Assembly (NCBI RefSeq): GCF_026626685.1
Contig: NZ_JAPNJX010000021.1
Location: 297,329-361,328 of the forward strand
Length of the DNA stretch: 64,000 bases
Direction: 5' to 3'
Source: Nannocystis sp. SCPEA4
Lineage (GTDB): Bacteria; Myxococcota_A; Polyangia; Nannocystales; Nannocystaceae
Below are positions 15,001 to 59,270 of the stretch, one piece after another. The notes under the pieces are model-generated. The model did not search any database and had not been told where the DNA came from. It saw only the letters and a list, made by a program, of their open reading frames with translations. The position numbers and the translations under genes were made by a program. Positions within the stretch are counted from its first letter, which is position 1. Every line of letters begins with the position of its first letter.

Positions 15001-15106
15001 CGCCTACCCCGACGTCGACGGCGACGGTGCGCCCGATCTCGTCGGCCTCGCCGGCGACGGCATGCTCATACGCCGCGGTCGCCGTCCGTCACAAAATGTC
15101 CCATGA
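12005..15106 (+). CDS. FG-GAP/VCBS-repeat (integrin-alpha-like beta-propeller) lipoprotein, ~1030 aa
   Basis: Lipobox FVAAC; repeated Ca-binding DxDGDGxxD motifs (DLDGDGEDE, GDVDGDAHAD, DHDGDGDLD ...); clear paralog of 17951..21052. Confidence 0.8.
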   Translation: MMPRRRSASWIVALAPVGLFVAACGGDEACDPRAGWCGGDPEFRLLATPVDDAVVVDLDGDGEDEAVMLSDGRKLTLAHGAEYDAWRTSVVLGESPLALAALPGEVAVGLGKPPQLAIFAMDADHRLVRRRDIPLSQPPVRLDSADLAGDGTPELLVALPDAKAIAVVDPRDGTVREYPAGEQPIDLEVGDVDGDAHADVVVVDAAGALQLLRGAGDGTLKPAVAQLASVGEFWLRLVDHDGDGDLDAVARRAAQGSVLVHRNDGHGRFSSPIALPVLPAATPSAGLVASPASPSGLASVSIPRDDTLVTWVGKGATWLGRNEQELAETRWVGPGPGDQVLVGSRNSLARLSWRAGFRPLEVWRSTSLNFFDERSLATGDLDSDHLLDFAATSGNLLHLFHGRADGGFDHELQYELDAPATAMVIADVSGDGRDDIVLDDGDDVRALIAGEDGQFLAGPRVVLDFPARALVPLRTGADPPVAIAVLATNANPDDVEVPGARVLRFDDDGLATVTTAIEDLVVDALAPVDLDADGVDEPLILGHRDGATVLTHLTPSDGGFEPDFEHDLAALDVPVAPWPRLTAADLDGDGALEVFFGNSAIRWRIDGLADGAPVTTFEEQEAPTHLHDLDGDERLDAVMFDYNTIAYQRGLGDGTFAAESVETQSPEGLAFALASRPDAQFDLVEVAHQWVASHIVRDVMLPVASAEWFALHGFGFELLDVDLDGDGSDDVAARVAGGVVWSWGSETDPLVHTDGATFSGWSPALAVGDFDGDGFSEVLTAGLGDFIEAFRTSPRLTEQRLVVHPLTTEGIWRLAVADVDGDGHLDILALHMLHVVKLDVARGTAEPFTFEPWQSLAEVPLRDRAQSFQLGDVDDDGDLDAAITFPENPPVLLHSEGLNAWTTVDLPGRMAAFGKLGPDHRVELVTQDGATIYRHEGGDPERRVALVTEEAATLLRVADVDGDERYDLTVVEKQATFAWLLGRGPPARIQLAEAPLTAVAYPDVDGDGAPDLVGLAGDGMLIRRGRRPSQNVP

Positions 15107-15135
15107 GACATGTGGTCTGTCCCATGGAACATGCC
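15091..15135. repeat. 3-4 degenerate copies of the 14-bp-period element (ACAAAATGTC-ccat-GAGACATGTG-gtct-GTCCCATGGA / GGAACATGCC) at the convergent junction of FG-GAP gene 1 and the small lipoprotein gene
   Basis: Read directly; begins within the last codons of 12005..15106. Confidence 0.55.
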
Positions 15136-15172
15136 CGTGGAGACAGGCGCGGCAGCACCGGCCCGTCGCCGC

Positions 15173-21338: not shown

Positions 21339-21581
21339 ATGCGTTCCATTCGTTCGTTCTCCGTCATCGCCATCGCTCTCTCGTTCGGCGCCATCGCCTT
21401 CGGGGCGCGCACCGCCCAGGCGAACATCTGCTGCAGCGCCCCGATCTGCCAGCAGGACTTCCCGCCGTCGCTGTGCGACCGCTGCACCCCGACCTGCGCC
21501 GAGGACGAGGCGCCCGCGGCCGCCGAGATCGTCTACGACGACGCCGAGCAGCTCTGCTACGTCGCCGGCGACGCCATCTGA
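21339..21581 (+). CDS. Small secreted cysteine-rich peptide/protein (80-aa precursor, ~52-aa mature form with 7 Cys)
   Basis: Excellent RBS AAGGAGA 7 nt upstream of ATG; Sec signal peptide MRSIRSFSVIAIALSFGAIAFGARTAQA|N; mature NICCSAPICQQDFPPSLCDRCTPTCAEDE...; high GC3 codon usage. Confidence 0.7.
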   Translation: MRSIRSFSVIAIALSFGAIAFGARTAQANICCSAPICQQDFPPSLCDRCTPTCAEDEAPAAAEIVYDDAEQLCYVAGDAI

Positions 21582-22335
21582 CGCTCGCACGGCCGGCGTG
21601 AGCCCCGGTGCGGCGCACCGTCCCCTCGTCCGGCCTCGCGCAGGTCCGGACGAGCCCGGACTGGTGAGACCTCCGGGGCTCTGCCGCCTCGTTCACCTGA
21701 CCCCCGGCGCGGCTCCTGCCGCCCGGGGTGTCCGCATGTCCCGCGGGACAGCCTGCGCATCCGCGGTGCACGTGCCCTGTCCTCGAGGTCACATATCATC
21801 ATTGCCTCGCGGCACGCCGCCTGGCCGGCACAGGTCGGCACGCCGATGACTCGGCCCCAGCACTCCGTCCCTGACATGACCCTTCAGACAGCTCGCCCGC
21901 TCATCCCCGCGGCCCGGCGACGCGCGCTCGCTCCAGTTCACCCGCGCACGCCACGCTCGACCTGACCCGGGGCCGCGACCGGAGCGATCCGGCAGCTCGC
22001 CGGACGCTCGTCCTGCGACACCGTGCCACCCGCGATCGGGAAGCGCCTGGGCCGCCGGCGCGCCCGGGCGAAGATGCCCTTCGGAACACGATCGTCGCAT
22101 CCGGCCCCAAAAGACAGGTTTACCGCCGGCCTGCGGGCCCCTGTCCGCCTTCATCCAGGACCGTCGGCTGCAGGCCAGATCGCCGCGGCCGGTGCGAGGG
22201 GCTTCCCCCGTGCGAACCCGCGCTCATGGATGGTTTTTCGGCTACCGAATCCGAGAGGTTCCACTCGTCGCCGATCGCGAGAAACCACCCGTCCCACGAT
22301 GCCGGATCGCCGGGGTCTTCCGCATCATCGCCGGC

Positions 22336-23820
22336 ATGACGCTGAAGATTGCAGGCAAGTGGTGGCTCGCGGTCCCGGTGGCGGTCGGGCTCGCAGGTTG
22401 CGGGGACTCCGGCAACGCGACGGGGACCGACTCCGGGACGATGACCCAGGGGACCGTGGATCCCACCCTCACGGGCACCGCCACCACGCCGACGACCAGC
22501 AACAGCGCGACCGACACGGACACCGGCGGGTCGATGTCGAACAGCGCGACGATGGCGACCACGAGCGTGCCGACGACGTCGACCACCGACGCGACGGCGA
22601 CGTTGACGGCCGGGCCGACCACCGACGCGACCACGACGACCACGAGCGACACGACCACCACCGGCACCACGACGAACACCGACACCACCGGCAACACCAC
22701 CGGCGGCGTGTGCCAGCCGGGCGACCCCGGCAACCCGGGCATGGCGGAGAAGAGCTACATCTTCATCCCCAGCCAGGACCTCGACGACGTCGCCAAGGTC
22801 AACACCCAGACCTTGATCGAGGAGGCGCGCTACAAGATCGGTCCCGGAGGCGAGAGCGCCTCGCGCACGGCGGTCAGCGCCGACGGCCGCTACGTCGTCG
22901 TCAACAACCGCCAGACCGGGCGCAGCACCATGCTCGCCGCCAACGTCGACGACTGCGTCGACACCAACGGCAACGGCATGATCGACACCTCGCAGAGCAG
23001 CGCCGACGTGCGCCCGTGGGGCCAGGACGAGTGCATCCTCTGGCAGATCCAGTGGCCCTACGGCGGCGCCTGGGACGACGGCCCGCGCGGCGTGACCTGG
23101 ACGCCCGGCACCTGGGACACCAACGTCTGCGCCTACGTCGATCCGAAGGTGTGGATCGGCTACATGGCGGCCGATCAGACCAGCGTGCACCTCGTGCGCG
23201 TGGCCGTGAACGGCACCGTCGAGGAGACCATCGCCGTGCCGGGCTGGAACGGCAGCGGCTTCGCGCCCTACGGCGCCGCGCTCGACCCCGACTTCAAGCC
23301 GTGGTTCTCGAGCCTGCGCGGCGAGTTCGTGCGCGTCAACACCGACGTGAACCCGATCACCGTCGACCGCTTCACCCCGCCGGGCAACGTGCAGTCGTAC
23401 GGCTTCACCGTCGACCCCGACGGCGACCCGTGGTTCGGCGGCAACTGCGGCCCGATCACCCGCTTCGACCCCGACACGATGCAGTTCATCGCCATCCCCG
23501 GGACCGAGGGCGGCTGCTGGCGCGGCGTCACGGCCGACAAGAACTTCACGTGGGTCGCCAACAACCAGCCGTGCGCGCTGGCCCAGGTCGATCGCACCAC
23601 CAACACCCTCGTCGCCCAGCACAACACCAACCCGTGCTCGACCGCCATCGGCCTCAGCGTCGACATCGAGGACTACGTGTGGCTCGTCGATCAGGGCGGC
23701 TGGGCGTGGAAGATCGATCCCGACAACGTCGCGGGCATGCAGCAGGTCATCGTCCCCGGCAGCCACTACGTCTACTCCGACATGACGGGCGGCCAGCTGA
23801 AGAGCGTCATCCCGATGTGA
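22336..23820 (+). CDS. Lipoprotein with a long T/S-rich linker and a C-terminal beta-rich (propeller-like) domain, function unknown
   Basis: Start at MTLKIAGKWWLAVPVAVGLAGC (lipobox); ~110-aa T/S/D/G linker; W/G-rich C-terminal domain. The listed ORF starts 48 codons upstream; that 5' extension is less plausible. Confidence 0.65.
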   Translation: MTLKIAGKWWLAVPVAVGLAGCGDSGNATGTDSGTMTQGTVDPTLTGTATTPTTSNSATDTDTGGSMSNSATMATTSVPTTSTTDATATLTAGPTTDATTTTTSDTTTTGTTTNTDTTGNTTGGVCQPGDPGNPGMAEKSYIFIPSQDLDDVAKVNTQTLIEEARYKIGPGGESASRTAVSADGRYVVVNNRQTGRSTMLAANVDDCVDTNGNGMIDTSQSSADVRPWGQDECILWQIQWPYGGAWDDGPRGVTWTPGTWDTNVCAYVDPKVWIGYMAADQTSVHLVRVAVNGTVEETIAVPGWNGSGFAPYGAALDPDFKPWFSSLRGEFVRVNTDVNPITVDRFTPPGNVQSYGFTVDPDGDPWFGGNCGPITRFDPDTMQFIAIPGTEGGCWRGVTADKNFTWVANNQPCALAQVDRTTNTLVAQHNTNPCSTAIGLSVDIEDYVWLVDQGGWAWKIDPDNVAGMQQVIVPGSHYVYSDMTGGQLKSVIPM

Positions 23821-40682: not shown

Positions 40683-41615
40683 TCATCCGGTAGCGCGCTT
40701 GCCGAGCGCCTGCGTCACGAAGGCCACGAACGACCGCTCGAGCCGGCTCGGCACGCGGTCGAGCAGGCGCACCAGCGAGATCCGGTTGGTCAGCGCTCGC
40801 CGGCGCGTCGTGATCGCCACCAGCTCGTCGCTGGCCAGCGCGCGTGCCACCGTGTGGGCCGGCACCACCCCGAGGCCCATCCCGGCGCTCGTCGCCGCGA
40901 TCACGGCCTGCACGCTCTCGACCGCCAGGGCCGGCTCGAGCCGCGCCGGCACCCGCCCGAAGTGGTGGCGGAACCACCCGCGCACCGCCGGCGCGCTCGC
41001 GTGGTAGTCGACGAAGCGGGCCGCGGCCAGGCGGGCGAACGCGCGGCTGCCCTGCAGCAGCTCGGCCTCGACGGCCGGCGCCGCGATCAGCAGCAGCGCC
41101 TCCTCCATCACCGGCGCGACCTCGAAGCCCGCCAGCCGGGTCCCGGCCGCACCTGTCCCTTCGAACACGTCGGCGAAGCCGAGGTCGAGCCGGCCCTCCT
41201 CGAGCAGCGGCACGATCTCCGCCGGGTGGCCGAGGCGCAGCGTGAAGCGCACGCCCGGGTGCAGGCGCGCGAACGCGGCCAGCACCTCGGGCAGGCGGTG
41301 CGACCCGAACTCGACCGGCGCGCCGATCTGCAGCGTGCCGGCCAGCTCGTGGCGCGCGCGGTGGATCTGCCCGACCCGCTCCTGCAGCCCGGCGACGAAC
41401 GGCGCGACCACGGCGAACAGCGCCTCGCCGGCCGCCGTCGGCACGATCGCGCGGTGGCGGCGGACGAACAGCTGCGCGTTCAGCTCGTCCTCGAGCTTGG
41501 CCAGGCTCTGGCTCACCGCCGACTGCGTCACGTGCAGCGCCGCCGCGGCCGCGCTGACGCTGCGCGCCTCGTGGACGTGGAAGAACACCCGCAGGCGGTT
41601 GAAGTCCGGCAGCAT
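40683..41615 (-). CDS. LysR-family transcriptional regulator
   Basis: N-terminal HTH: ARSVSAAAAALHVTQSAVSQSLAKLEDELNAQLF; LysR substrate-binding domain; divergent from ahcY. Confidence 0.85.
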   Translation of the reverse strand: MLPDFNRLRVFFHVHEARSVSAAAAALHVTQSAVSQSLAKLEDELNAQLFVRRHRAIVPTAAGEALFAVVAPFVAGLQERVGQIHRARHELAGTLQIGAPVEFGSHRLPEVLAAFARLHPGVRFTLRLGHPAEIVPLLEEGRLDLGFADVFEGTGAAGTRLAGFEVAPVMEEALLLIAAPAVEAELLQGSRAFARLAAARFVDYHASAPAVRGWFRHHFGRVPARLEPALAVESVQAVIAATSAGMGLGVVPAHTVARALASDELVAITTRRRALTNRISLVRLLDRVPSRLERSFVAFVTQALGKRATG

Positions 41616-41719
41616 TACTCTGCCTTATACCATCGCTGAGAAACTCGAACGTGACTGATGCGTCGCCCGCCCGCATCTTCGTCGGCGGGAGGGCCCGCGA
41701 GGCGCGGGCGAGCCACGAC

Positions 41720-42991
41720 ATGACGACCAGGACGAACGCGACAGACATCACCGACGAGACCCTGGCCCCGCGCGGGCGCGACAAGATCGAGTGGGCCGAG
41801 CGGGCCATGCCCGTGCTGGCGGCCGTGCGCGAGCGATTCACCCGCGAGCGTCCGCTCGCCGGCGTGCGGGTGGCGGCCTGCTTGCACGTCACCGCCGAGA
41901 CCGCCGCGCTGGTGCGGACCCTCGCGGCCGGCGGCGCCGAGGTGCGGCTGTGCGCCAGCAACCCGCTCAGCACCCAGGACGACGTCGCCGCCTCGCTGGC
42001 GGTGCACGACGGCATCGGCGTGCTCGCCCGCGCCGGCGAGGACCGGGCGACCTACTTCGCCCACCTCGCGGCCGCCCTCGGCCACCGCCCGCAGCTGGCG
42101 ATGGACGACGGCGCCGACCTGGCCACGCTCGTGCACACCAGCCATGCCGCCCTCGGCGACGCGATCGTCGGCGGCACCGAGGAGACCACCACCGGCGTCA
42201 CTCGCCTGCGGTCCATGGCCCGCGAGGGCGTGCTGCGCTACCCGGTGATCGCGGTCAACGACGCCGTCACCAAGCACATGTTCGACAACCGCTACGGCAC
42301 CGGCCAGAGCACCATCGACGGCATCCTGCGGGCCACCAATCGGCTGCTCGCCGGCGCCTGCTTCGTCGTCTGCGGCTACGGCTGGTGCGGCCGCGGCCTG
42401 GCCGCGCGGGCGGCCGGCATGGGCGCGCGCGTGATCGTCACCGAGGTCGACCCGCTGCGCGCGCTCGAGGCGACGATGGACGGCTACCAGGTGCTGCCGA
42501 TCGCCCGCGCCGCCGCGCTCGGCGACGTCTTCGTCACCGTCGCCGGCAACCGCGGCGTCATCGGCGGCCCCGAGTTCGCGGTCATGAAGGACGGCGCCGT
42601 GGTCGCCAACGCCGGTCACTTCGACGTCGAGCTCGACCTCGCGGCGCTCGCCGCCCTCGCCCCGCAGCGGCGGCGGATCCGGCCCTCGCTCGACGAGTAC
42701 CGCCAGCCCGACGGCCGCCGGATCTACCTGCTCGCCGAGGGTCGCCTGGTCAACCTCGCCGCCGCCGAGGGCCACCCGGCCGCGGTCATGGACCTCAGCT
42801 TCGCCGACCAGGCGCTGGCCGCCGAGTACGTGCTCGCCTCGGCGCGCGAGCTCGCCACCGACGTCCACGCCTTGCCGCGCGCGATCGACGAGGACGTCGC
42901 GCGCCTCAAGCTGCGCGCGCTCGGGGTCGAGATCGACGTCCTCAGCGCCGACCAGCGCGACTACCTGCGCGCCTGGACGACCGGCACGTGA
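41720..42991 (+). CDS. ahcY: Adenosylhomocysteinase (S-adenosyl-L-homocysteine hydrolase)
   Basis: Conserved SAHH blocks: TAETAALVRTL, GAEVRLCASNPLSTQDDVAA, the NAD-binding GYGWCGRG region, HFDVE. Listed ORF starts at GTG 41651; ATG 41720 preferred from N-terminal conservation (start uncertain). Confidence 0.85.
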   Translation: MTTRTNATDITDETLAPRGRDKIEWAERAMPVLAAVRERFTRERPLAGVRVAACLHVTAETAALVRTLAAGGAEVRLCASNPLSTQDDVAASLAVHDGIGVLARAGEDRATYFAHLAAALGHRPQLAMDDGADLATLVHTSHAALGDAIVGGTEETTTGVTRLRSMAREGVLRYPVIAVNDAVTKHMFDNRYGTGQSTIDGILRATNRLLAGACFVVCGYGWCGRGLAARAAGMGARVIVTEVDPLRALEATMDGYQVLPIARAAALGDVFVTVAGNRGVIGGPEFAVMKDGAVVANAGHFDVELDLAALAALAPQRRRIRPSLDEYRQPDGRRIYLLAEGRLVNLAAAEGHPAAVMDLSFADQALAAEYVLASARELATDVHALPRAIDEDVARLKLRALGVEIDVLSADQRDYLRAWTTGT

Positions 42992-44041
42992 TCAGATCCA
43001 CGGCCAGTTGACGCGACAGCCGCCGCAGATCCGGTGCGAATTGCGGCGCTCGCTCAGGTGTTGCTCGCGCAGCGCCGCGTAGGCCGGGCCGCCGTAGATC
43101 TCGCGCAGCGTGTTGTCGTTGGCGTTGCCGAGGATCAGCTGGCGCAGCGCCGCGTCCTCGCAGCACGGCGCCACGCGTCCGTCGGCGTACACGTAGAGCT
43201 TGTGCCACGGCGCCGGGCACGGCATCTGCCACTGTGCGTCGTCCATCACCCGCAGGCGCCCGCGCACCGGCGCGGCCCTGTCGGTCTTCTTGAGCTCGCC
43301 GAGCCAGTCGGTGCGGTCGGCGATGCTGACGCGATCGACCCGCGACTGCCAGTAGCGCACGAACTCGGGCAGCTCGTGCACGTTCTCGGCCAGCGTCACG
43401 CACGACACCGTGACCCGCGGCACCTCGCCGCGGTGGGCCCGGCGCAGCGCGAGGAACCGCTCGATGTTGCCGTACACGCGCTCGCGCGAGAGCGGCGGCA
43501 TCACGGCCTCGTAGACCGCCTGCGACAGGCCGTTGACGCTGAAGTTGACCTCCGACCAGCCGCCGAGCTCGAGCATCGCCGCCGCCAGCTCCGGCGTCAG
43601 CATGCTCGCGTTGGAGAAGAAGTTGTACGTCATGCCGGCCGCGCGCACGTACTGCACGCGCTCGAGCCAGCGCCTGTCGACCATCGGTTCGCCGTAGATG
43701 CTGAGGCACACCGACCCGATCCCCCACTCGGCCGCCTCGTCGACCAGGCGGCGGAACAGCTCCATCGGCATCACCCCGACCATCTTGCGCTCGCTGTGGA
43801 CGCACATCGTGCAGCGCGCATTGCACGTCAGCACCGTCTCGATCCACAGCTGCGGCGGCGCCCCGGCGCGCACCGCCGCGTCGGCCGCGGTCACGCGGGT
43901 GCGGATGAAGCGGCGGAACAGCGGCGTGCGCTGCAGCGCCGGCGAGCGGTAGATCCGCTTGGCCAGCGCGACCGCGGCGGGCGAGCGCGCCACCAGCCGC
44001 CGCAGCTGCGCCAGGGACGGGCGCGGGAGCGAGAGCCTCAT
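42992..44041 (-). CDS. Radical SAM enzyme with C-terminal SPASM domain (peptide/protein-modifying maturase family)
   Basis: CxxxCxxC = CNARCTMC; SPASM Cys cluster CPAPWHKLYVYADGRVAPCCEDA...ICGGCRVN; GGAGCGGAGG ~5 nt upstream of ATG 44041; lies tail-to-tail with ahcY with no gap. Confidence 0.8.
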   Translation of the reverse strand: MRLSLPRPSLAQLRRLVARSPAAVALAKRIYRSPALQRTPLFRRFIRTRVTAADAAVRAGAPPQLWIETVLTCNARCTMCVHSERKMVGVMPMELFRRLVDEAAEWGIGSVCLSIYGEPMVDRRWLERVQYVRAAGMTYNFFSNASMLTPELAAAMLELGGWSEVNFSVNGLSQAVYEAVMPPLSRERVYGNIERFLALRRAHRGEVPRVTVSCVTLAENVHELPEFVRYWQSRVDRVSIADRTDWLGELKKTDRAAPVRGRLRVMDDAQWQMPCPAPWHKLYVYADGRVAPCCEDAALRQLILGNANDNTLREIYGGPAYAALREQHLSERRNSHRICGGCRVNWPWI

Positions 44042-44103
44042 GCCGCCTCCGCTCCGCCGGCGGGCGGCGCGACAATCGCAACACATGACCTCAAAGACAG
44101 CAT
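44038..44103 (-). other. Candidate 21-codon small ORF (MLSLRSCVAIVAPPAGGAEAA) translationally coupled to the rSAM/SPASM gene; precursor peptide or leader uORF. Tentative.
   Basis: GGAGG 5 nt upstream of its ATG; its TGA overlaps the rSAM ATG (ATGA). Caveats: rare codons for this genome (TCT, TTG, AGG, TCA, TGT, GTT, ATT), and the ATG sits inside a sequence resembling the ACATGACC-N4-AGACAGC element also seen near 21872. Confidence 0.3.
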
Positions 44104-44321
44104 ACGACCTCCGACGACCGCGCCCGCGGCTCGCAGCAAAGCCATGGTCGCGGTCCTGATCGAGACAGTGGCCGGGGTCGACGCCGTCCGTCACAGTTCG
44201 GCACAGGCGCGATGAATCACAGCACCGCCGCCGGCGTGGCCGCATGCGCCGCCATCCGTCACGCGTGCTCCGGACGTCCTCTCATTCGCCGCAGTCGACG
44301 CCGCGATCGCATCCGCGGCGT

Positions 44322-44470
44322 CGCTGCGCCGTGTGGCCGCACGCCGACCCGTCCGTCTCGCGGGCTTCGGCCGTCGTCACATTCACCAGAGGCGGCGTCA
44401 GGCCGTGTGGCCGCACGCCGCTCCGTCCGTCTCGCGCGCTCGCTGGTCGACGCGTTCGTCACGCGTCTTC
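44322..44470. repeat. Imperfect ~75 bp direct repeats (2-3 copies) in the 520 bp region upstream of the rSAM/SPASM gene
   Basis: Units share cgtgtggccgcacgccg..ccgtccgtctcgcg.gct.cg...cgtcac...ttcac; related CCGTCCGTCAC / CCATCCGTCAC motifs recur at ~44184 and ~44252. Confidence 0.45.
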
Positions 44471-44562
44471 GAATTCACGGGCGGTATGTGTACCAGTGAC
44501 CTGCGCGGACCGACGACGTCGCGGCCCACGCCGCGTCGTCGTCGGCCGCTGCGATCAGGCCT

Positions 44563-46353
44563 TCAGAGCAGCGGGCAATCGGCGGCCGGGTCGGCCGAAA
44601 GCTCGCACGTCGCCTCGACGAACACCCCTGAGTTCGGCGCTCCCGTGCGGAGGATGAAGAACTCGAGGTTGAAGCCCTCGGCGACGCACTCGGGGCTCAT
44701 GTTGTCGATCGAGCTCGGCGTCTCCCCACTGCCGTCGGTCAGCGCGACGAAGCACGACGTGGACCCGGCGGGCACCGTCCACTCGCCGCCGACCTCCATG
44801 CACGGCAGGAGCGCGGTGCGGGTCTCGTTCAGCAGATCGACCTCGAACAGCTCGCAGTTCGCCTCGAGCGTGGGCGTGTTCGGATCGACGTCGGCGACGC
44901 ACCTCGGCATGCAGGCCGGCCGGATCTGGCCGGCGATCTTCCCGGCCATGGTCGCCAGCGCCGCGTCGTAGCTGTCGTCGCAGATCGAGAACAGGTCGCG
45001 GTCCTCGCCGACCGCGAACGCCTCGGCGAACACGCGCTCGCGCACCGGCGGGATCGCGGTGAGACCGTCGGCACCGAGGCAGCCGGGGCCGATGCCGAAG
45101 TCGGTCTGGAACTGCGGATCGGGCGCGTCCTCGTACACGATCTCGGCGTCGTGCGACTCGTAGCCGACGGGCACGCCCGCGAGCATCATGACCCGCACCT
45201 CCGCGTCCGGATCGAACACCTTCTTCTCGTCCTCGATCGCCTGCACGAAGTCGATGTAGCGCGCCAGCGGCTGCAGCACCGCCTGCTCGTCGGGTACGTC
45301 GAACGAGCCGTCGATGCCGAAGTTGGCCGAGGTGCAGGTCTCGAACGTCGGCCCGGCGCCCGTGCACGCCACCCCAGCGTTCCAGCACGCCGCGCTCGTC
45401 GGCGCCGCCGCGTCCGGGTCCTCCCAGAACACCTTGTTGGTGGTGAAGATCGCGTCGTTGGCCCGCGAGCAGTCGGCCTCGTCGCTGACCACGATCACCG
45501 ACAGGCTCGCGTGCGGGCGCATGAAGCCGTGGTTGGTCGGCGACGTGTCGTCGTTCGCCCGGCTCAGCGCGAGGAACATCGACTCGAGGTGCGACTCCAT
45601 CCCGCAACCGGCGACCCCCTGCGGGATGAAGCACTGCAGCGCGTCGATCGGATCGACGCCGTCGGGCAGGTTGGACACGCTATTGATCTTCTCGACCCAA
45701 TTGCGCGGCGCGAGCGCGCCGTTCGACAGGTGCGTCTCGGTCGGCTTGATCGGCAGGTCGGCGTCGGTCAGCGCGCAGAGGTCGGTGCACGCCGACGACG
45801 CGTCCTCGCCGAGCACCTCGAACTCGCCCAGCGCCACCCGATCGATGCAGCTCGTCAGCTGCAGCCTCCCGCGCTCCGGCGTGGTGACCATCTCGTCGCA
45901 GCGCGGGTTGCCGCTGTCGGTCGTGGTGATGCCGATGCGGTAGTTGAGGCCCTCGATCCGATCGAGGAAGCTGTCCATGGCCGCCGCCAGCTTGGCCTGC
46001 CGCGTGGCCATCGACAACGAATTGTCGATCACGAACAGGATGTCGGCGTCGGCGTTGAAGGCGATCACCACCGGCTCCGTCGGCTCCGGACCGTCGGTCG
46101 GATCGCCCTCGGTGTCCGTGCTCGGCCCGTCGGTCGGATCGGCGGTGGTCGGCGGGGCCGTCGTCGTCGGCGGGTCGTTCGTGGTCGGACCGTCGGTCGC
46201 CGGGCCATCGGTGATCGTCGTGTCGTCGCCGTCGGTCTCCTCGCCGGGGTGGCGCTCGGTGCACGCGGAAGCCGCGACGATCGCCGAACACAGGCCGAGG
46301 GAGCGCATCGAGTCAAGCCAAGGAGTCGAGTTCATGGCGGAGTTATAACGCAT
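44563..46353 (-). CDS. Secreted lipoprotein with a vWA-like domain and Cys-rich C-terminal region; paralog of 10825..11874
   Basis: GGAGG 8 nt upstream of ATG 46353; signal peptide ending ...MRSLGLCSAIVAASAC (lipobox); ILFVIDNSLSMATRQ (MIDAS-like); T/P/D-rich linker. Confidence 0.7.
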   Translation of the reverse strand: MRYNSAMNSTPWLDSMRSLGLCSAIVAASACTERHPGEETDGDDTTITDGPATDGPTTNDPPTTTAPPTTADPTDGPSTDTEGDPTDGPEPTEPVVIAFNADADILFVIDNSLSMATRQAKLAAAMDSFLDRIEGLNYRIGITTTDSGNPRCDEMVTTPERGRLQLTSCIDRVALGEFEVLGEDASSACTDLCALTDADLPIKPTETHLSNGALAPRNWVEKINSVSNLPDGVDPIDALQCFIPQGVAGCGMESHLESMFLALSRANDDTSPTNHGFMRPHASLSVIVVSDEADCSRANDAIFTTNKVFWEDPDAAAPTSAACWNAGVACTGAGPTFETCTSANFGIDGSFDVPDEQAVLQPLARYIDFVQAIEDEKKVFDPDAEVRVMMLAGVPVGYESHDAEIVYEDAPDPQFQTDFGIGPGCLGADGLTAIPPVRERVFAEAFAVGEDRDLFSICDDSYDAALATMAGKIAGQIRPACMPRCVADVDPNTPTLEANCELFEVDLLNETRTALLPCMEVGGEWTVPAGSTSCFVALTDGSGETPSSIDNMSPECVAEGFNLEFFILRTGAPNSGVFVEATCELSADPAADCPLL

Positions 46354-46550
46354 GGTCGAAACCTCCGCCGCGACCACGGCCGAGTTCGTGGTTCTCTCGG
46401 AGCAGTGCCCCGTTCCGTCATGGTCGGCGCGCGTGCTCGCGGGGCGAACTCGCGCCTGGGGCCCGCCTGACCGAAAGAATACCGACATGACGTCGCATGA
46501 TTCTCAAGACATGTCCGAACGGCCACTCCGCCCCCGCCTCGAACGCGCAC

Positions 46551-48592: not shown

Positions 48593-48616
48593 AGCACATG
48601 CCCCCAGAGACATGTG
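48593..48616. repeat. Two copies of the 14-bp-period element (AGCACATGCC-ccca-GAGACATGTG) between convergent stops of the AraC regulator and the lipoprotein gene
   Basis: Read directly. Confidence 0.55.
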
Positions 48617-51563: not shown

Positions 51564-51629
51564 AAGGACATGATGCAGAGAACATGCCCGATCGGGCATG
51601 CCTTCCGTGACATGCCCTACGGGCCTGTC
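51564..51629. repeat. Tandem array, 5 copies, 14-bp period (10-mer core NGNACATGCC + 4-nt spacer): AGGACATGAT-gcag-AGAACATGCC-cgat-CGGGCATGCC-ttcc-GTGACATGCC-ctac-GGGCCTGTCC
   Basis: Read directly from the sequence; CATG (or one-mismatch variant) at the same phase in every unit; lies between convergent gene ends (50119..51513 + and 51808..53052 -). Confidence 0.85.
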
Positions 51630-51739
51630 CGGAGCAGCGCCACGCTCGCCTGTCCCGACGCGCCGGCGACATGCTCGTCTCGCCCTCCCGTCTGTGCCGA
51701 GCGGCCGAGCGGTCCTGCCGCCGCATCCCCGGCCTGTGG

Positions 51740-51791
51740 CGTCATGTCCTCCCGAGCATGCTCCATCAGACATGCTCTTTAAAACATGTCT
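51740..51791. repeat. Tandem array, 4 copies, same 14-bp family: CGTCATGTCC-tccc-GAGCATGCTC-catc-AGACATGCTC-ttta-AAACATGTCT
   Basis: Read directly; ~110 bp from the previous array in the same intergenic region; locally AT-rich. Confidence 0.8.
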
Positions 51792-55361: not shown

Positions 55362-55441
55362 CAGACATGCCCGATCGGCCATGTCCCGATCGACATGCTC
55401 CGACGAGCATGCCTTCGAGTGCATGTCCGATCGGACATGTT
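55362..55441. repeat. Tandem array, 6 copies, 14-bp period: CAGACATGCC-cgat-CGGCCATGTC-ccga-TCGACATGCT-ccga-CGAGCATGCC-ttcg-AGTGCATGTC-cgat-CGGACATGTT
   Basis: Read directly; CATG in phase in all six units; sits between the two paralogous P-rich lipoprotein genes. The ATG-containing frames across it create spurious listed ORFs (55347.., 55367.., 55381..). Confidence 0.9.
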
Positions 55442-58530: not shown

Positions 58531-59123
58531 ACCCACCTCCCGCGGGCCGCGCGGGCCCGCTGCAGTCGCTCGCCGAGCGCGGCCGGGGGCGCCGGCGGAC
58601 CCCACGGCGTGCACTGCGGCGCCGGCAGCCACTCCTGGCGCTCGCAGCAGACCCAGTCGACCTCGCCGGTGCGCATGTCGACGCAGTCGTCGAGCTCCCC
58701 CATGGTGGTGCTGCCGGTGCCCTCGTCCGTGGTCGCGCCGGAGTCGGTCTCGCCCGTGGTCGAGGTCGAGGTCGAGGTCGTCGTCGCCAGCGTCGTCGCG
58801 TCGGTCAGCAGCGTCGCCTCGCCGCTGGTCGTCGTCGCCTCGCCGCTCGTGCTCGTGGTCGCCGTCGTCGTCGCCTCCTCCGCGCCCGTGCCGGTCAGCC
58901 CCTCGCTGCCACCCGCGCTCGAGCTCGTGGTCGCCAGCGCCGTCGTGTCCGCCGCGCTCGCGCCCGTCGAGCCGTCGCTCGCCGCGTCCGTCTCGCCCTC
59001 GTTCGGCCCCGACCCGCACGCCGCGATCAGCGTGAGCACCAGGCCGGCGCGCAGCCGCGGCCGTCCGACCAGCCCCGCAGCGGCCGCCAGTGCGCGTTCG
59101 TGATGAGATGTCTTTAAAGCCAT
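58527..59123 (-). CDS. S/T-rich lipoprotein with Cys-containing C-terminus
   Basis: GGGAGGA 9 nt upstream of ATG (MALKTSHHERALAAAAGLVGRPRLRAGLVLTLIAAC, lipobox); long T/S/G/A/E region; C-terminal DDCVDMRTGEVDWVCCERQEWLPAPQCTPWG. Confidence 0.6.
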   Translation of the reverse strand: MALKTSHHERALAAAAGLVGRPRLRAGLVLTLIAACGSGPNEGETDAASDGSTGASAADTTALATTSSSAGGSEGLTGTGAEEATTTATTSTSGEATTTSGEATLLTDATTLATTTSTSTSTTGETDSGATTDEGTGSTTMGELDDCVDMRTGEVDWVCCERQEWLPAPQCTPWGPPAPPAALGERLQRARAARGRWV

Positions 59124-59270
59124 GTCGAAGATTCCTCCCGCCTCGAACATGGCTCATCGCGCGCGTACACGGAAACGATCTTGTGTTGGCGGCGCTGTAA
59201 ACCACCGGTTTACAGCGCGCTCACGGACGGAGCCGGTGAACCCCGTGGCGCCTGAAGAGGCGTGGAATGC

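What the first reader, a model, noticed from the sequence alone, without database searches (positions are those of the whole stretch)
42992..44470. Radical-SAM/SPASM maturase with a translationally coupled 21-codon ORF and an upstream repeat-rich 500-bp leader
rSAM/SPASM enzymes typically modify ribosomal peptides (sactipeptides, ranthipeptides, PQQ/mycofactocin-type crosslinks) or mature proteins. Immediately upstream on the same strand there is a 21-codon ORF (MLSLRSCVAIVAPPAGGAEAA) with GGAGG 5 nt before its ATG, and its stop overlaps the maturase start as ATGA. That arrangement is classic for a precursor-enzyme pair or a regulatory leader peptide. The ORF uses codons that are rare for this genome, which fits a stalling leader or recently acquired DNA but also fits non-coding sequence. 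Its ATG lies in a motif (ACATGACC-N4-AGACAGC) that recurs near 21872. The 44.1-44.5 kb region upstream carries imperfect ~75-bp direct repeats and has no convincing ORF. The maturase lies tail-to-tail, with no gap, against adenosylhomocysteinase.
Basis: partly seen in the sequence, partly recalled or inferred. Interest (0 to 1): 0.6.

Follow-up and report, generated by a model that had tools for sequence, protein, structure and literature searches.

The report
Sugar-type radical SAM enzyme, regulatory leader
This is an uncharacterised radical-SAM enzyme most like the sugar-modifying enzyme BtrN, preceded in Nannocystis by a conserved regulatory leader; the 21-codon reading frame is probably a by-product of a genus-wide DNA repeat, not a peptide the enzyme modifies.

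Summary
The gene at 42992-44041 (-) encodes a 349-aa radical SAM protein. It has only a truncated, one-cluster "Twitch" form of the SPASM domain. Its closest solved relative by sequence and by fold is BtrN, a small-molecule (aminocyclitol) dehydrogenase. It has no RRE-like peptide-binding domain. Related genes sit next to a GT2 glycosyltransferase or inside sugar and glycan clusters.

The 21-codon ORF with an ATGA overlap is kept in the six cultured Nannocystis species and one near-identical metagenome contig. Its only conserved residues are forced by two units of a genus-wide 14-nt CATG repeat and by the enzyme's own Shine-Dalgarno site. Between close strains it changes faster than silent sites in the enzyme gene, mostly by amino-acid replacements. 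Orthologues 81-83% identical, and all more distant ones, lack it. A precursor-maturase pair is therefore not supported.

The leader is functional:
- It carries 3-4 copies of a fixed bipartite box, GACGGACG-N11-GGCCAC. The nearest copy always lies about 150 nt before the start codon.
- It carries a 40-nt RNA hairpin supported by compensatory base changes, directly 5' of a conserved GGAGG.

A translated regulatory uORF cannot be excluded. Adjacency to ahcY is not conserved. This is an ordinary-to-moderately interesting new member of a known enzyme kind.

The parts
42992..44041 (-). Radical SAM enzyme, 349 aa. It has CxxxCxxC at C73/C77/C80, a four-helix basic N-terminal extension, and a C-terminal Twitch-type (truncated SPASM) domain with C275, C293, C294, C339 and C342.
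   Evidence: Pfam and NCBIfam; GC3 frame; homologue lengths and alignment; BtrN is the best PDB match by sequence and by fold.
44038..44103 (-). 21-codon ORF (MLSLRSCVAIVAPPAGGAEAA) whose stop overlaps the enzyme's ATG as ATGA. It is probably incidental, or at most a regulatory uORF.
   Evidence: Sequence. It is kept in frame in 8 Nannocystis leaders, but the peptide is not conserved. It is absent from other orthologues.
44083..44103 (-). Two units of the genus-wide CATG repeat (consensus GGRCATGYCC plus 4 nt, 14-nt period; here the ATGs are 17 nt apart). They supply the sORF's ATG and its Ser, Cys and Ile codons.
44108..44112 (-). GGAGG conserved in all Nannocystis leaders, 4-10 nt upstream of the sORF ATG (Shine-Dalgarno-like).
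   Evidence: Alignments.
44116..44155 (-). Conserved 40-nt RNA hairpin in the 5' leader.
   Evidence: All 7 orthologous segments fold to the same architecture. The apical 5-bp stem has 30/30 standard pairs in 6 distinct sequences. Three pairs show compensatory double changes. G.U pairs work only on the sense strand.
44156..44194 (-). Proximal box GTGACGGACG-N11-GGCCAC plus the conserved extension TG(T/C)NNCGATCA. This is the proposed activator site and core promoter.
   Evidence: The position is fixed at -148 to -151 from the ATG in all species. The conserved extension is seen. The promoter role is inferred.
44236..44262 (-). Box copy C (GTGACGGATG-N11-GGCCAC).
44333..44359 (-). Box copy B (GAGACGGACG-N11-GGCCAC).
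44407..44433 (-). Box copy A (GAGACGGACG-N11-GGCCAC).
44510..44545 (-). 16-bp GC-rich hairpin just after the stop of the upstream gene. It is a likely terminator that separates the two transcription units.
   Evidence: I1, 94% complementary. Comparable hairpins occur in L001, L002, L003 and L005.
44563..46488 (-). Upstream 641-aa protein with a weak VWA/MIDAS match. It is syntenic with the enzyme only within Nannocystis.
41651..42991 (+). Adenosylhomocysteinase (ahcY), convergent with the enzyme gene. The tight adjacency is lineage-specific.

Best explanation
The gene encodes a BtrN-like radical SAM enzyme. It has one radical SAM [4Fe-4S] site plus a single auxiliary cluster in a Twitch domain. 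It most likely abstracts hydrogen from a sugar, nucleotide-sugar or glycan-type small molecule, not from a ribosomal peptide.

In the cultured Nannocystis species the gene is its own transcription unit, driven from a roughly 500-bp control region. I read that region as follows:
- Three or four copies of a bipartite box (GACGGACG-N11-GGCCAC) are binding sites for a dedicated regulator. This is inferred.
- The proximal box overlaps the core promoter. This is inferred.
- The transcript starts with, or near, a conserved 40-nt hairpin. The hairpin is shown by covariation; the start site is inferred.
- The hairpin is followed by GGAGG, two units of a genus-wide CATG repeat, and the enzyme's own Shine-Dalgarno site and ATG.

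The 21-codon ORF arises because the CATG repeat supplies an ATG and GC-rich DNA rarely contains stop codons. Its peptide is not the enzyme's substrate. At most, its translation tunes initiation at the overlapping enzyme start codon.
For: Enzyme class:
- CxxxCxxC is invariant.
- The C-terminal part has C-X12-G-X4-C and a final CxxC but no CX2CX5CX3C.
- A profile search of the PDB gives BtrN at E 1e-17 over both the core and the auxiliary domain, with all four BtrN cluster ligands aligned. BlsE comes next.
- The AF2 model has pLDDT 88. Foldseek ranks BtrN first at E 4e-12, TM 0.75 normalised to BtrN's length (0.55 to the query's).
- No NCBIfam family reaches its cut-off.

Genomic context:
- A GT2 glycosyltransferase lies directly downstream in L006, L007, L008, L018 and L042/43, and about 1.4 kb upstream on the opposite strand in L009.
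- A methyltransferase lies downstream in L002, L005 and L010.
- 30%-identical homologues lie in a C. jejuni pseudaminic-acid/phosphonate island and in a Magnetospirillum NDP-sugar cluster.

The sORF is not a substrate:
- The only conserved residues, M-S-x3-C-x2-I, are encoded by TCT, TGT and ATT inside the repeat. The C-terminal E-x-R-S is the enzyme's Shine-Dalgarno site.
- Between the window and L001, 4 of 63 nt differ and all four are replacements, against dS 0.027 for the enzyme gene.
- L169 adds 2 replacements and 1 silent change.
- The ORF is absent from L167, L168, L170, L042, L044 and L046.
- At least six ORFs of 20 aa or more lie on the same strand of this non-coding stretch.

The leader is functional:
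- The boxes occur 3-4 times per species, with a single further pattern match (L003 12025) in the flanking Nannocystis DNA. Their half-site spacing and proximal position are fixed.
- The hairpin shows covariation.
Against: - No substrate, transcription start site or regulator has been identified.
- Gene context is not conserved across the whole family, so the sugar assignment rests on analogy and on three independent contexts.
- SuiB, SkfB and PqqE, which are peptide-modifying, are also good fold matches.
- The sORF frame is preserved through two indels of 3 and 6 nt, and it has a good GGAGG plus an AU-rich spacer in five species. This is more than a purely accidental ORF would predict.
- The box matches no promoter or transcription-factor consensus that I could name, and it could be an RNA motif instead.
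- The N. bainbridge orthologue has lost two of the three radical SAM cysteines yet keeps the leader.
Confidence: 0.6

Rival explanations
1. The small ORF is a genuine translated regulatory uORF. Ribosomes load at the conserved GGAGG after the hairpin, read 18-21 codons that include conserved rare A/T-ending codons, and terminate on the ATGA. Enzyme synthesis would then depend on, or be throttled by, uORF translation through translational coupling.
For: - The ORF, its ATGA overlap and an upstream GGAGG 4-10 nt from the ATG are present in all eight Nannocystis leaders.
- The distance from the repeat to the ATGA differs only by 0, 3 or 6 nt.
- The hairpin covariation shows the region is in the RNA.
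- In some species a local stem abuts the enzyme's AUG.
Against: - The enzyme has its own conserved Shine-Dalgarno site.
- The peptide evolves at or above the neutral rate.
- The conserved rare codons are explained by a DNA repeat that is found in all kinds of intergenic regions.
- The stem at the AUG is not consistently predicted.
- In the window the GGAGG-ATG spacing is only 4 nt.
- Close orthologues work without it.
Confidence: 0.25
2. The sORF is a RiPP precursor (with a single conserved Cys) and the enzyme is its maturase.
For: - The arrangement is adjacent, co-directional and overlapping.
- One Cys is conserved at position 6-8 in all versions.
- Twitch and SPASM enzymes such as SkfB and SuiB are among the fold matches.
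Against: - There is no RRE and no PqqD hit.
- The peptide is 18-21 aa with no conserved core. The conserved Cys codon is part of the CATG repeat.
- All four differences between near-identical strains are replacements.
- Orthologues at 81-83% identity, and all others, lack it.
- About 1,428 family representatives (E below 1e-30) exist across many phyla, in varied contexts.
Confidence: 0.03
3. The boxes act at the RNA level. A long 5' UTR of about 400 nt would carry 3-4 repeated protein-binding motifs (for example ANGGA-type sites as used by CsrA-like regulators), rather than DNA operator or activator sites.
For: - Each box contains ACGGA(C/U)G.
- All copies are on the sense strand.
- The sense strand folds somewhat better than shuffled sequence (z = -2.2), whereas the antisense strand does not (z = -0.6).
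- The hairpin shows that at least the proximal leader is RNA.
Against: - The second half-site GGCCAC at a fixed 11-nt distance is not explained by a GGA-loop motif.
- No covariation or conserved structure is seen around the boxes, and the inter-box spacers are free in sequence and length.
- A terminator-like hairpin and no recognisable promoter lie upstream of the boxes.
- There is no Rfam match.
Confidence: 0.15
4. The enzyme is an anaerobic sulfatase-maturating-type or other protein-modifying radical SAM enzyme whose substrate is encoded elsewhere.
For: - The Pfam SPASM hit.
- One distant homologue is named AslB by its source.
- An FGE-sulfatase-like gene lies two genes upstream in L002-L005 and L010.
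Against: - anSME needs two auxiliary clusters (7-8 Cys), and only the Twitch subset is present.
- No anSME family appears among the best 25 of 30 NCBIfam hits shown.
- The FGE-like gene is absent from the window and from L001.
- BtrN ranks above all protein-modifying enzymes.
Confidence: 0.05

Closest known systems
BtrN (2-deoxy-scyllo-inosamine dehydrogenase, butirosin pathway; PDB 4M7T), the founding Twitch-domain radical SAM enzyme
   Same: - Partial-barrel radical SAM core plus a short C-terminal auxiliary-cluster domain.
- The motifs C-X12-G-X4-C and CxxC align to the four BtrN auxiliary-cluster cysteines, including the P-C-x-E-D motif.
- It is the best fold match.
   Different: - Only about 16% identity.
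- About 100 aa longer, with a basic four-helix N-terminal extension that BtrN lacks.
- An extra conserved Cys (C294).
- No aminoglycoside cluster nearby, and the substrate is unknown.
SPASM-domain RiPP maturases (AlbA, SkfB, SuiB, PqqE) and anSME
   Same: Same superfamily and the same beginning of the auxiliary domain. The Pfam SPASM model hits at 49.7 bits, and these enzymes are significant fold matches.
   Different: - No second auxiliary-cluster motif (CX2CX5CX3C).
- No RRE/PqqD-like domain.
- No conserved precursor peptide.
Sugar-modifying Twitch/SPASM-like radical SAM enzymes BlsE and DesII
   Same: They are hits in sequence (BlsE) and in fold. Relatives of the window enzyme sit in nucleotide-sugar and glycan clusters or next to a GT2.
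   Different: Identity is low, the reaction cannot be inferred, and the window itself has no sugar genes nearby.
Translationally coupled upstream ORFs / leader peptides with ATGA overlap
   Same: The layout is Shine-Dalgarno site, short ORF, then a stop overlapping the next start. Rare codons are present. The arrangement is kept in one genus.
   Different: - No conserved peptide or regulatory codon run.
- No terminator/antiterminator alternative.
- The downstream gene has its own Shine-Dalgarno site.
- The conserved nucleotides are explained by a dispersed DNA repeat.
REP/BIME-type dispersed intergenic palindromes, and tandem operator arrays such as MetJ met-boxes
   Same: The CATG units are short palindromes (GGRCATGYCC). 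They are confined to non-coding DNA, occur in arrays of 2-6, and are found between convergent, divergent and tandem genes.
   Different: They have a strict 14-nt period and are restricted to one genus. No associated transposase or binding protein is known. I found no description in the searchable literature.

Membership tests
Radical SAM superfamily | CxxxCxxC motif that binds the SAM-cleaving [4Fe-4S] cluster, within a partial TIM barrel. | tested here: met
   C73-x3-C77-x2-C80 is invariant or nearly invariant in 28 of 29 family members. Pfam PF04055 scores 54.5 bits. The model shows a beta/alpha core.
SPASM domain (two auxiliary clusters) | Seven-Cys pattern CX9-15GX4C ... CX2CX5CX3C ... C. 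| tested here: not met
   Only C275-X12-G-X4-C293(C294) and C339-X2-C342 are present. The protein ends 7 residues after C342, so there is no CX5CX3C. The Pfam SPASM model still matches because Twitch is a truncated SPASM.
Twitch-domain radical SAM enzymes (BtrN type) | A single auxiliary cluster ligated by CX9-15GX4C plus a distal CxxC, in a short C-terminal beta-hairpin/helix domain. | tested here: met
   All four BtrN ligand positions align. BtrN is the top PDB hit by sequence and by fold. Cluster content itself cannot be tested with these tools.
Twitch-domain radical SAM enzymes (BtrN type) | Small-molecule (non-peptide) substrate. | not testable with these tools
   Support is indirect only: a GT2 partner, and glycan or NDP-sugar clusters around 30% homologues.
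RiPP maturase with cognate precursor | RRE (PqqD-like winged helix) or another leader-binding domain. | tested here: not met
   No PqqD hit at E of 0.01 or below. N-terminal residues 10-58 are four helices with no strands.
RiPP maturase with cognate precursor | A conserved precursor peptide encoded next to orthologous enzymes. | tested here: not met
   The ORF is present only in syntenic Nannocystis leaders and its sequence is not conserved. It is absent from L167, L168, L170, L042, L044 and L046.
Anaerobic sulfatase-maturating enzyme (anSME) | Two auxiliary clusters and a match to the anSME equivalog model. | tested here: not met
   No anSME model appears among the best 25 of 30 NCBIfam hits shown, and all hits shown are far below their cut-offs. 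The Cys count is too low.
Regulatory leader peptide / attenuator | A translated short ORF whose translation changes downstream expression, with a conserved peptide, conserved codons or an alternative RNA structure. | tested here: inconclusive
   The frame, the GGAGG and the ATGA overlap are conserved. The peptide is not conserved, and no consistent alternative structure is found. Translation cannot be tested here.
Structured cis-regulatory RNA (Rfam families) | A match to a curated covariance model. | tested here: not met
   No hit at gathering score in the window, and only chance-level hits in 43950-44650. The hairpin at 44116-44155 is nevertheless supported by covariation.

The most novel reading that the evidence does not exclude
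The leader could be a previously undescribed control module for a widespread uncharacterised family of BtrN-like enzymes. In this reading an array of bipartite boxes recruits a dedicated regulator. A covarying 5' hairpin plus a translated rare-codon uORF, built from units of the genus-wide CATG repeat, would gate translation of the enzyme through the ATGA overlap. The CATG repeat itself would then be a new kind of genus-specific regulatory or REP-like element that has been co-opted here.
Probability: 0.2. Interest if true: 0.5.

Novelty: new member of a known kind. Interest (0 to 1): 0.35.

Why it matters
- It removes a false lead. A short ORF overlapping a radical SAM/SPASM gene looks like a RiPP pair, but here it is produced by a dispersed repeat in GC-rich DNA. 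Genome-mining pipelines would make the same mistake.
- It flags a large family with no known function: about 1,428 representatives at 50% identity with E below 1e-30. These are BtrN-like one-auxiliary-cluster enzymes with a basic helical N-terminus, and their contexts point to glycan or nucleotide-sugar chemistry.
- It defines a tractable regulatory region (boxes, hairpin, uORF) in Nannocystis.
- It exposes a striking 14-nt periodic CATG repeat that fills intergenic DNA of this genus and appears to be undescribed.

Tried and rejected
- Tandem Repeats Finder on the leader found nothing because the repeats are dispersed boxes.
- Rfam gave no relevant hit, at gathering score or at permissive thresholds.
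- The sigma-70 promoter scan found none. The only terminator-like site lies inside the upstream gene.
- I checked sigma-54 and ECF consensus sequences by eye against the boxes and found no fit.
- RNAalifold on MAFFT alignments missed the hairpin because the arms were misaligned by one column. Folding each sequence on its own revealed it.
- A covariance model built from two sequences was too sequence-specific. At E of 10 or below it returned 197 mostly spurious hits, so alignment A5 was not used.
- A second hairpin sequestering the enzyme's start codon was considered. It is not predicted consistently across species, so it is not claimed.
- An N-terminally extended enzyme starting at 44245 or 44086 is rejected. 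The frame is closed by stops in L001, L005 and L010, and homologues start at the ATGA.
- A functional link to ahcY is rejected, because 1-4.5 kb of other genes intervene in four species and ahcY is absent within 10 kb in L004.
- Conserved partners in the Rhodospirillales clade were sought and none were found.
- Literature searches for Nannocystis radical SAM enzymes, for the repeats and for the Campylobacter homologue found nothing relevant.
Full report
**1. What is there**

The window is about 72% G+C, and real genes have GC3 of 0.88-0.99. The GC3 signal for the minus-strand frame of the radical SAM gene runs from about 43000 to about 44000. No frame signal exists between 44050 and 44560.

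Pfam finds Radical_SAM and SPASM. The 35 word-indexed homologues are 292-379 aa (most 340-372), and the closest 29 of them align from the ATG at 44041. The ORF that is open to 44245 is closed by stop codons in orthologous loci. The gene is therefore 42992-44041 and encodes 349 aa.

The best matches are Nannocystis. Locus L001 (N. radixulma) is 98.6% identical in protein.

- The 21-codon ORF and its ATGA overlap are exactly as described.
- GGAGG at 44112-44108 is present; the spacer to the ATG is 4 nt, not 5.
- The recurrence of the motif at 21874-21892 is exact.
- The zero-gap convergent ahcY is confirmed.

**2. The enzyme**

The family alignment shows the following:
- CxxxCxxC at C73, C77 and C80.
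- A C-terminal C275-X12-G-X4-C293-C294.
- A final C339-X2-C342, after which the protein ends 7 residues later.

This is the Twitch subset of the SPASM motif. The CX2CX5CX3C part that binds a second auxiliary cluster is missing. No NCBIfam family comes near its cut-off.

A profile search of all PDB sequences puts BtrN first, at E 1e-17. Both the core and the auxiliary domain match, the four BtrN ligand cysteines align, and the P-C-x-E-D motif is shared. BlsE comes next.

An AlphaFold model has pLDDT 88 and pTM 0.88. Foldseek finds BtrN as the best structure, at E 4e-12, TM 0.75 normalised to BtrN's length (0.55 to the query's). SuiB, BlsE, SkfB, PqqE, DesII and EpeE follow.

The first 60 residues form four basic helices with no beta strands. 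This is unlike an RRE.

An exhaustive profile search finds 1,428 representative proteins at E of 1e-30 or below. Most are 320-350 aa and many cover the N-terminal helices. This is a large, unnamed family.

**3. Genomic context of relatives**

Within cultured Nannocystis (L001-L005, L010) the order is VWA-like gene, then a 330-500-bp gap (about 1.4 kb in L004), then the enzyme. ahcY placement varies:
- It is flush against the enzyme only in the N. radixulma lineage (window, L001, L169).
- It lies 1-4.5 kb away in L002, L003, L005 and L010.
- It is absent within 10 kb in L004.

In L002, L005 and L010 a Methyltransf_24 gene follows the enzyme.

In the sister Nannocystaceae lineage (58-63% identity) a GT2 glycosyltransferase is nearby. 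It follows directly in L006, L007, L008, L018 and L042/43. In L009 it lies about 1.4 kb upstream on the opposite strand.

Orthologues in Rhodospirillales and in an unassigned metagenome contig (L046) have unrelated neighbours.

Homologues at about 30% identity lie in two sugar-related settings:
- A C. jejuni island with PseI, PseD, PEP mutase, phosphonopyruvate decarboxylase and a CDP-alcohol transferase.
- A Magnetospirillum cluster with an NDP-sugar 4,6-dehydratase, a 3,5-epimerase, a nucleotidyltransferase-phosphatase, a GHMP kinase and a B12-radical SAM enzyme.

These are three independent links to glycan or nucleotide-sugar chemistry. Together with the BtrN, BlsE and DesII resemblance, they make a carbohydrate-type small-molecule substrate the best guess. 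This is inference, not demonstration.

**4. The small ORF**

An ORF ending in ATGA is present in all Nannocystis leaders that share the synteny:

| Locus | Peptide |
|---|---|
| window | MLSLRSCVAIVAPPAGGAEAA |
| L001 | MLSFRSCVVIVAPPAGGAEGP |
| L169 | MLSLRSCVVIVAPPAGGAEAP |
| L002 | MSHETCGRIRDRSEETRS |
| L003 | MSHETCGRIRGRSEEARS |
| L004 | MMSQETCVCIHRGRGQEVRS |
| L005 | MSQGTCKRIRGLCEEARS |
| L010 | MEMSRGPCDDIRRGGAEVRS |

Three lines of evidence argue against a functional peptide.

(a) The only conserved residues are M-S-x3-C-x2-I. They are encoded by TCT, TGT and ATT, which are A/T-ending codons in a genome with about 97% GC3. These codons lie inside a DNA motif that recurs throughout the genus (section 5). 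The conserved C-terminal E-x-R-S is simply the enzyme's Shine-Dalgarno sequence read in another frame.

(b) Between the window and L001 the enzyme gene has dN 0.008 and dS 0.027. The sORF differs at 4 of 63 nt, and all four differences are replacements. L169 adds two replacements and one silent change.

(c) Orthologues as close as those of the cultured species lack the ORF, the palindrome and the boxes. These are L167 (81%), L168 (83%) and L170 (83%), which have only 75-140 nt of upstream DNA. The same is true of L042, L044 and L046.

ORFs of 20 aa or more are also common in this non-coding stretch: six lie on the same strand.

Some evidence points the other way:
- The distance from the repeat to the ATGA differs only by 0, 3 or 6 nt.
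- GGAGG lies 4-10 nt before the ATG in every species, often with a U-rich spacer.

Translation as a regulatory uORF therefore remains possible, at roughly one chance in four. A substrate role is very unlikely.

**5. The motif that holds the ATG is a genus-wide repeat**

The pattern TGTCT-N5-GNCATGT occurs 6 times in the window, against 0 expected. A looser pattern gives 72 strand-hits in 190 kb of Nannocystis DNA, almost all where coding signal is low.

Distances between consecutive CATG sites peak sharply at 14 nt: 61 cases, against 8 or fewer for any other distance. The unit consensus is GGRCATGYCC plus 4 nt. The periodicity is present in every Nannocystis locus and absent from other Nannocystaceae.

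Arrays lie in every kind of intergenic region:
- Between convergent genes: 15096-15145, 48596-48612, 51569-51788.
- Between divergent genes: 55366-55439.
- Between tandem genes: 46486-46513.

The element is therefore neither specific to this enzyme nor promoter-specific. So is its inverted partner at 21777, and a further copy at 21736-21750.

**6. The leader**

Four copies of GACGGACG-N11-GGCCAC lie at 44168-44433. All are on the sense strand, and the half-site spacing is constant. A decayed fifth copy (GTGACGAACG) lies near 44452-44461.

Every Nannocystis species has 3-4 copies. The proximal one is always 148-151 nt from the ATG and is followed by conserved TGCAACGATCA (TGTCTCGATCA in the window). 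Spacers between boxes vary freely in sequence and in length, from 48 to 97 nt.

The box pattern matches only once more in the flanking Nannocystis DNA sampled (L003 12025). It is absent from other Nannocystaceae loci.

Between the proximal box and GGAGG lies a 40-nt segment at 44116-44155. In all seven sequences it folds on its own into the same three-part hairpin. Its five apical pairs are standard in 30 of 30 cells of the six distinct sequences:
- Pair 3 is C-G, U.G or U-A.
- Pair 4 is U-A or C-G.
- Pair 5 is U.G, C-G, U-A or G-C.

Only 55 of 20,000 column shuffles reach this value. The same helix read on the antisense strand has 25 of 30 standard pairs. One caveat applies: I chose the 3' arm as the best complement. 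It does coincide with the independently predicted MFE helices and with the homologous alignment columns.

This hairpin shows that the proximal leader functions as sense-strand RNA. A GC-rich hairpin after the upstream gene's stop (44510-44545, with counterparts elsewhere) suggests a separate transcription unit.

My reading has three parts:
- The boxes are protein-binding sites.
- The proximal box overlaps an activator-dependent promoter, with TG-n-AACGAT as a possible extended -10.
- The transcript begins at or near the hairpin.

This reading is inferred. No known promoter consensus fits, and an RNA-level role for the boxes is a live rival.

**7. Verdict**

The precursor-maturase interpretation is not supported. 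What is present is an uncharacterised BtrN-like Twitch radical SAM enzyme, probably acting on a sugar-type small molecule. A genus-specific, evidently functional 5' control region precedes it. The small ORF is most likely a by-product of a dispersed CATG repeat, and possibly a regulatory uORF.

Novelty: a new member of a known enzyme kind, with an undescribed leader. Interest is modest. The CATG-14 repeat may be the more unusual discovery, but it lies outside the finding.

Noticed in passing
window 55366-55439, 51569-51614, 51743-51788, 46486-46513, 15096-15145, 48596-48612, 21736-21890, 59109-59125; also L002 4120-4170, L010 40-135, 1530-1600 and 7700-7790: A genus-wide intergenic repeat forms arrays of 2-6 units of the 10-bp palindrome GGRCATGYCC with a strict 14-nt period. 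CATG-to-CATG distance is 14 nt in 61 cases, against 8 or fewer for any other distance. It is present in all Nannocystis loci and absent from other Nannocystaceae. It occurs in convergent, divergent and tandem intergenic regions. I found no description of it in the searchable literature.
   Followed up: partly
window 21580-22340: A long (about 750 bp) non-coding region carries an inverted pair of the CATG-type motif about 97 nt apart (21777-21794 and 21874-21892), plus a further copy at 21736-21750. No ORF with coding-like GC3 is present. Its function is unknown.
   Followed up: partly
L010 10121-10300 (N. bainbridge orthologue, P0007): The radical SAM motif is destroyed by clustered in-frame substitutions and a 6-nt deletion (TCNARCSMCVHSERK becomes SLGKGRGARCDPS, losing two of three Cys). 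Flanking DNA is nearly identical to other species, and the leader, boxes, hairpin and sORF are intact. This is either a pseudo-enzyme, a recent inactivation or an assembly artefact.
   Followed up: partly
L023 7508-13786 (Campylobacter jejuni GB55): A 30%-identical Twitch radical SAM homologue sits in a flagellin-glycosylation island. Its neighbours include PseI, PseD, a methyltransferase, a CDP-alcohol phosphatidyltransferase-like gene, a cytidylyltransferase-PEP mutase fusion, phosphonopyruvate decarboxylase and an APS-kinase-like gene. This suggests a phosphonate-decorated nonulosonic acid pathway that includes a radical SAM step.
   Followed up: no
L033 8383-14659 (Magnetospirillum sp. SS-4): A homologue lies between a B12-binding radical SAM enzyme and an NDP-sugar 4,6-dehydratase. 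A 3,5-epimerase, a nucleotidyltransferase-HAD phosphatase and a GHMP kinase are also present. This looks like a heptose or deoxysugar tailoring cluster with two radical SAM enzymes.
   Followed up: no
window 40683-41615 (-) and 41651-42991 (+): A LysR-family regulator is divergent from ahcY with a 35-nt gap. The pair is conserved in L002, L003, L005 and L010. The LysR protein is probably the ahcY regulator and is unrelated to the radical SAM gene.
   Followed up: no
window 42992-44245 (-): The enzyme's reading frame is open 204 nt upstream of the true start, giving a 417-aa ORF. Automatic annotation could easily call an N-terminally extended protein that swallows the sORF and the hairpin. Orthologues have stop codons in this extension.
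   Followed up: yes
L002 6939-7634 and equivalents in L003, L004, L005, L010: An FGE-sulfatase-like (formylglycine-generating-enzyme fold) gene and a 388-aa choice-of-anchor-L protein precede the VWA-like gene in most Nannocystis species. The FGE-like gene is missing from the window and from L001.
   Followed up: no
window 15082-15091: A lone GTGACGGACGG half-box, identical to the proximal box of the leader, lies directly beside a CATG array between convergent genes. It has no GGCCAC half-site. Its significance is unknown.
   Followed up: no
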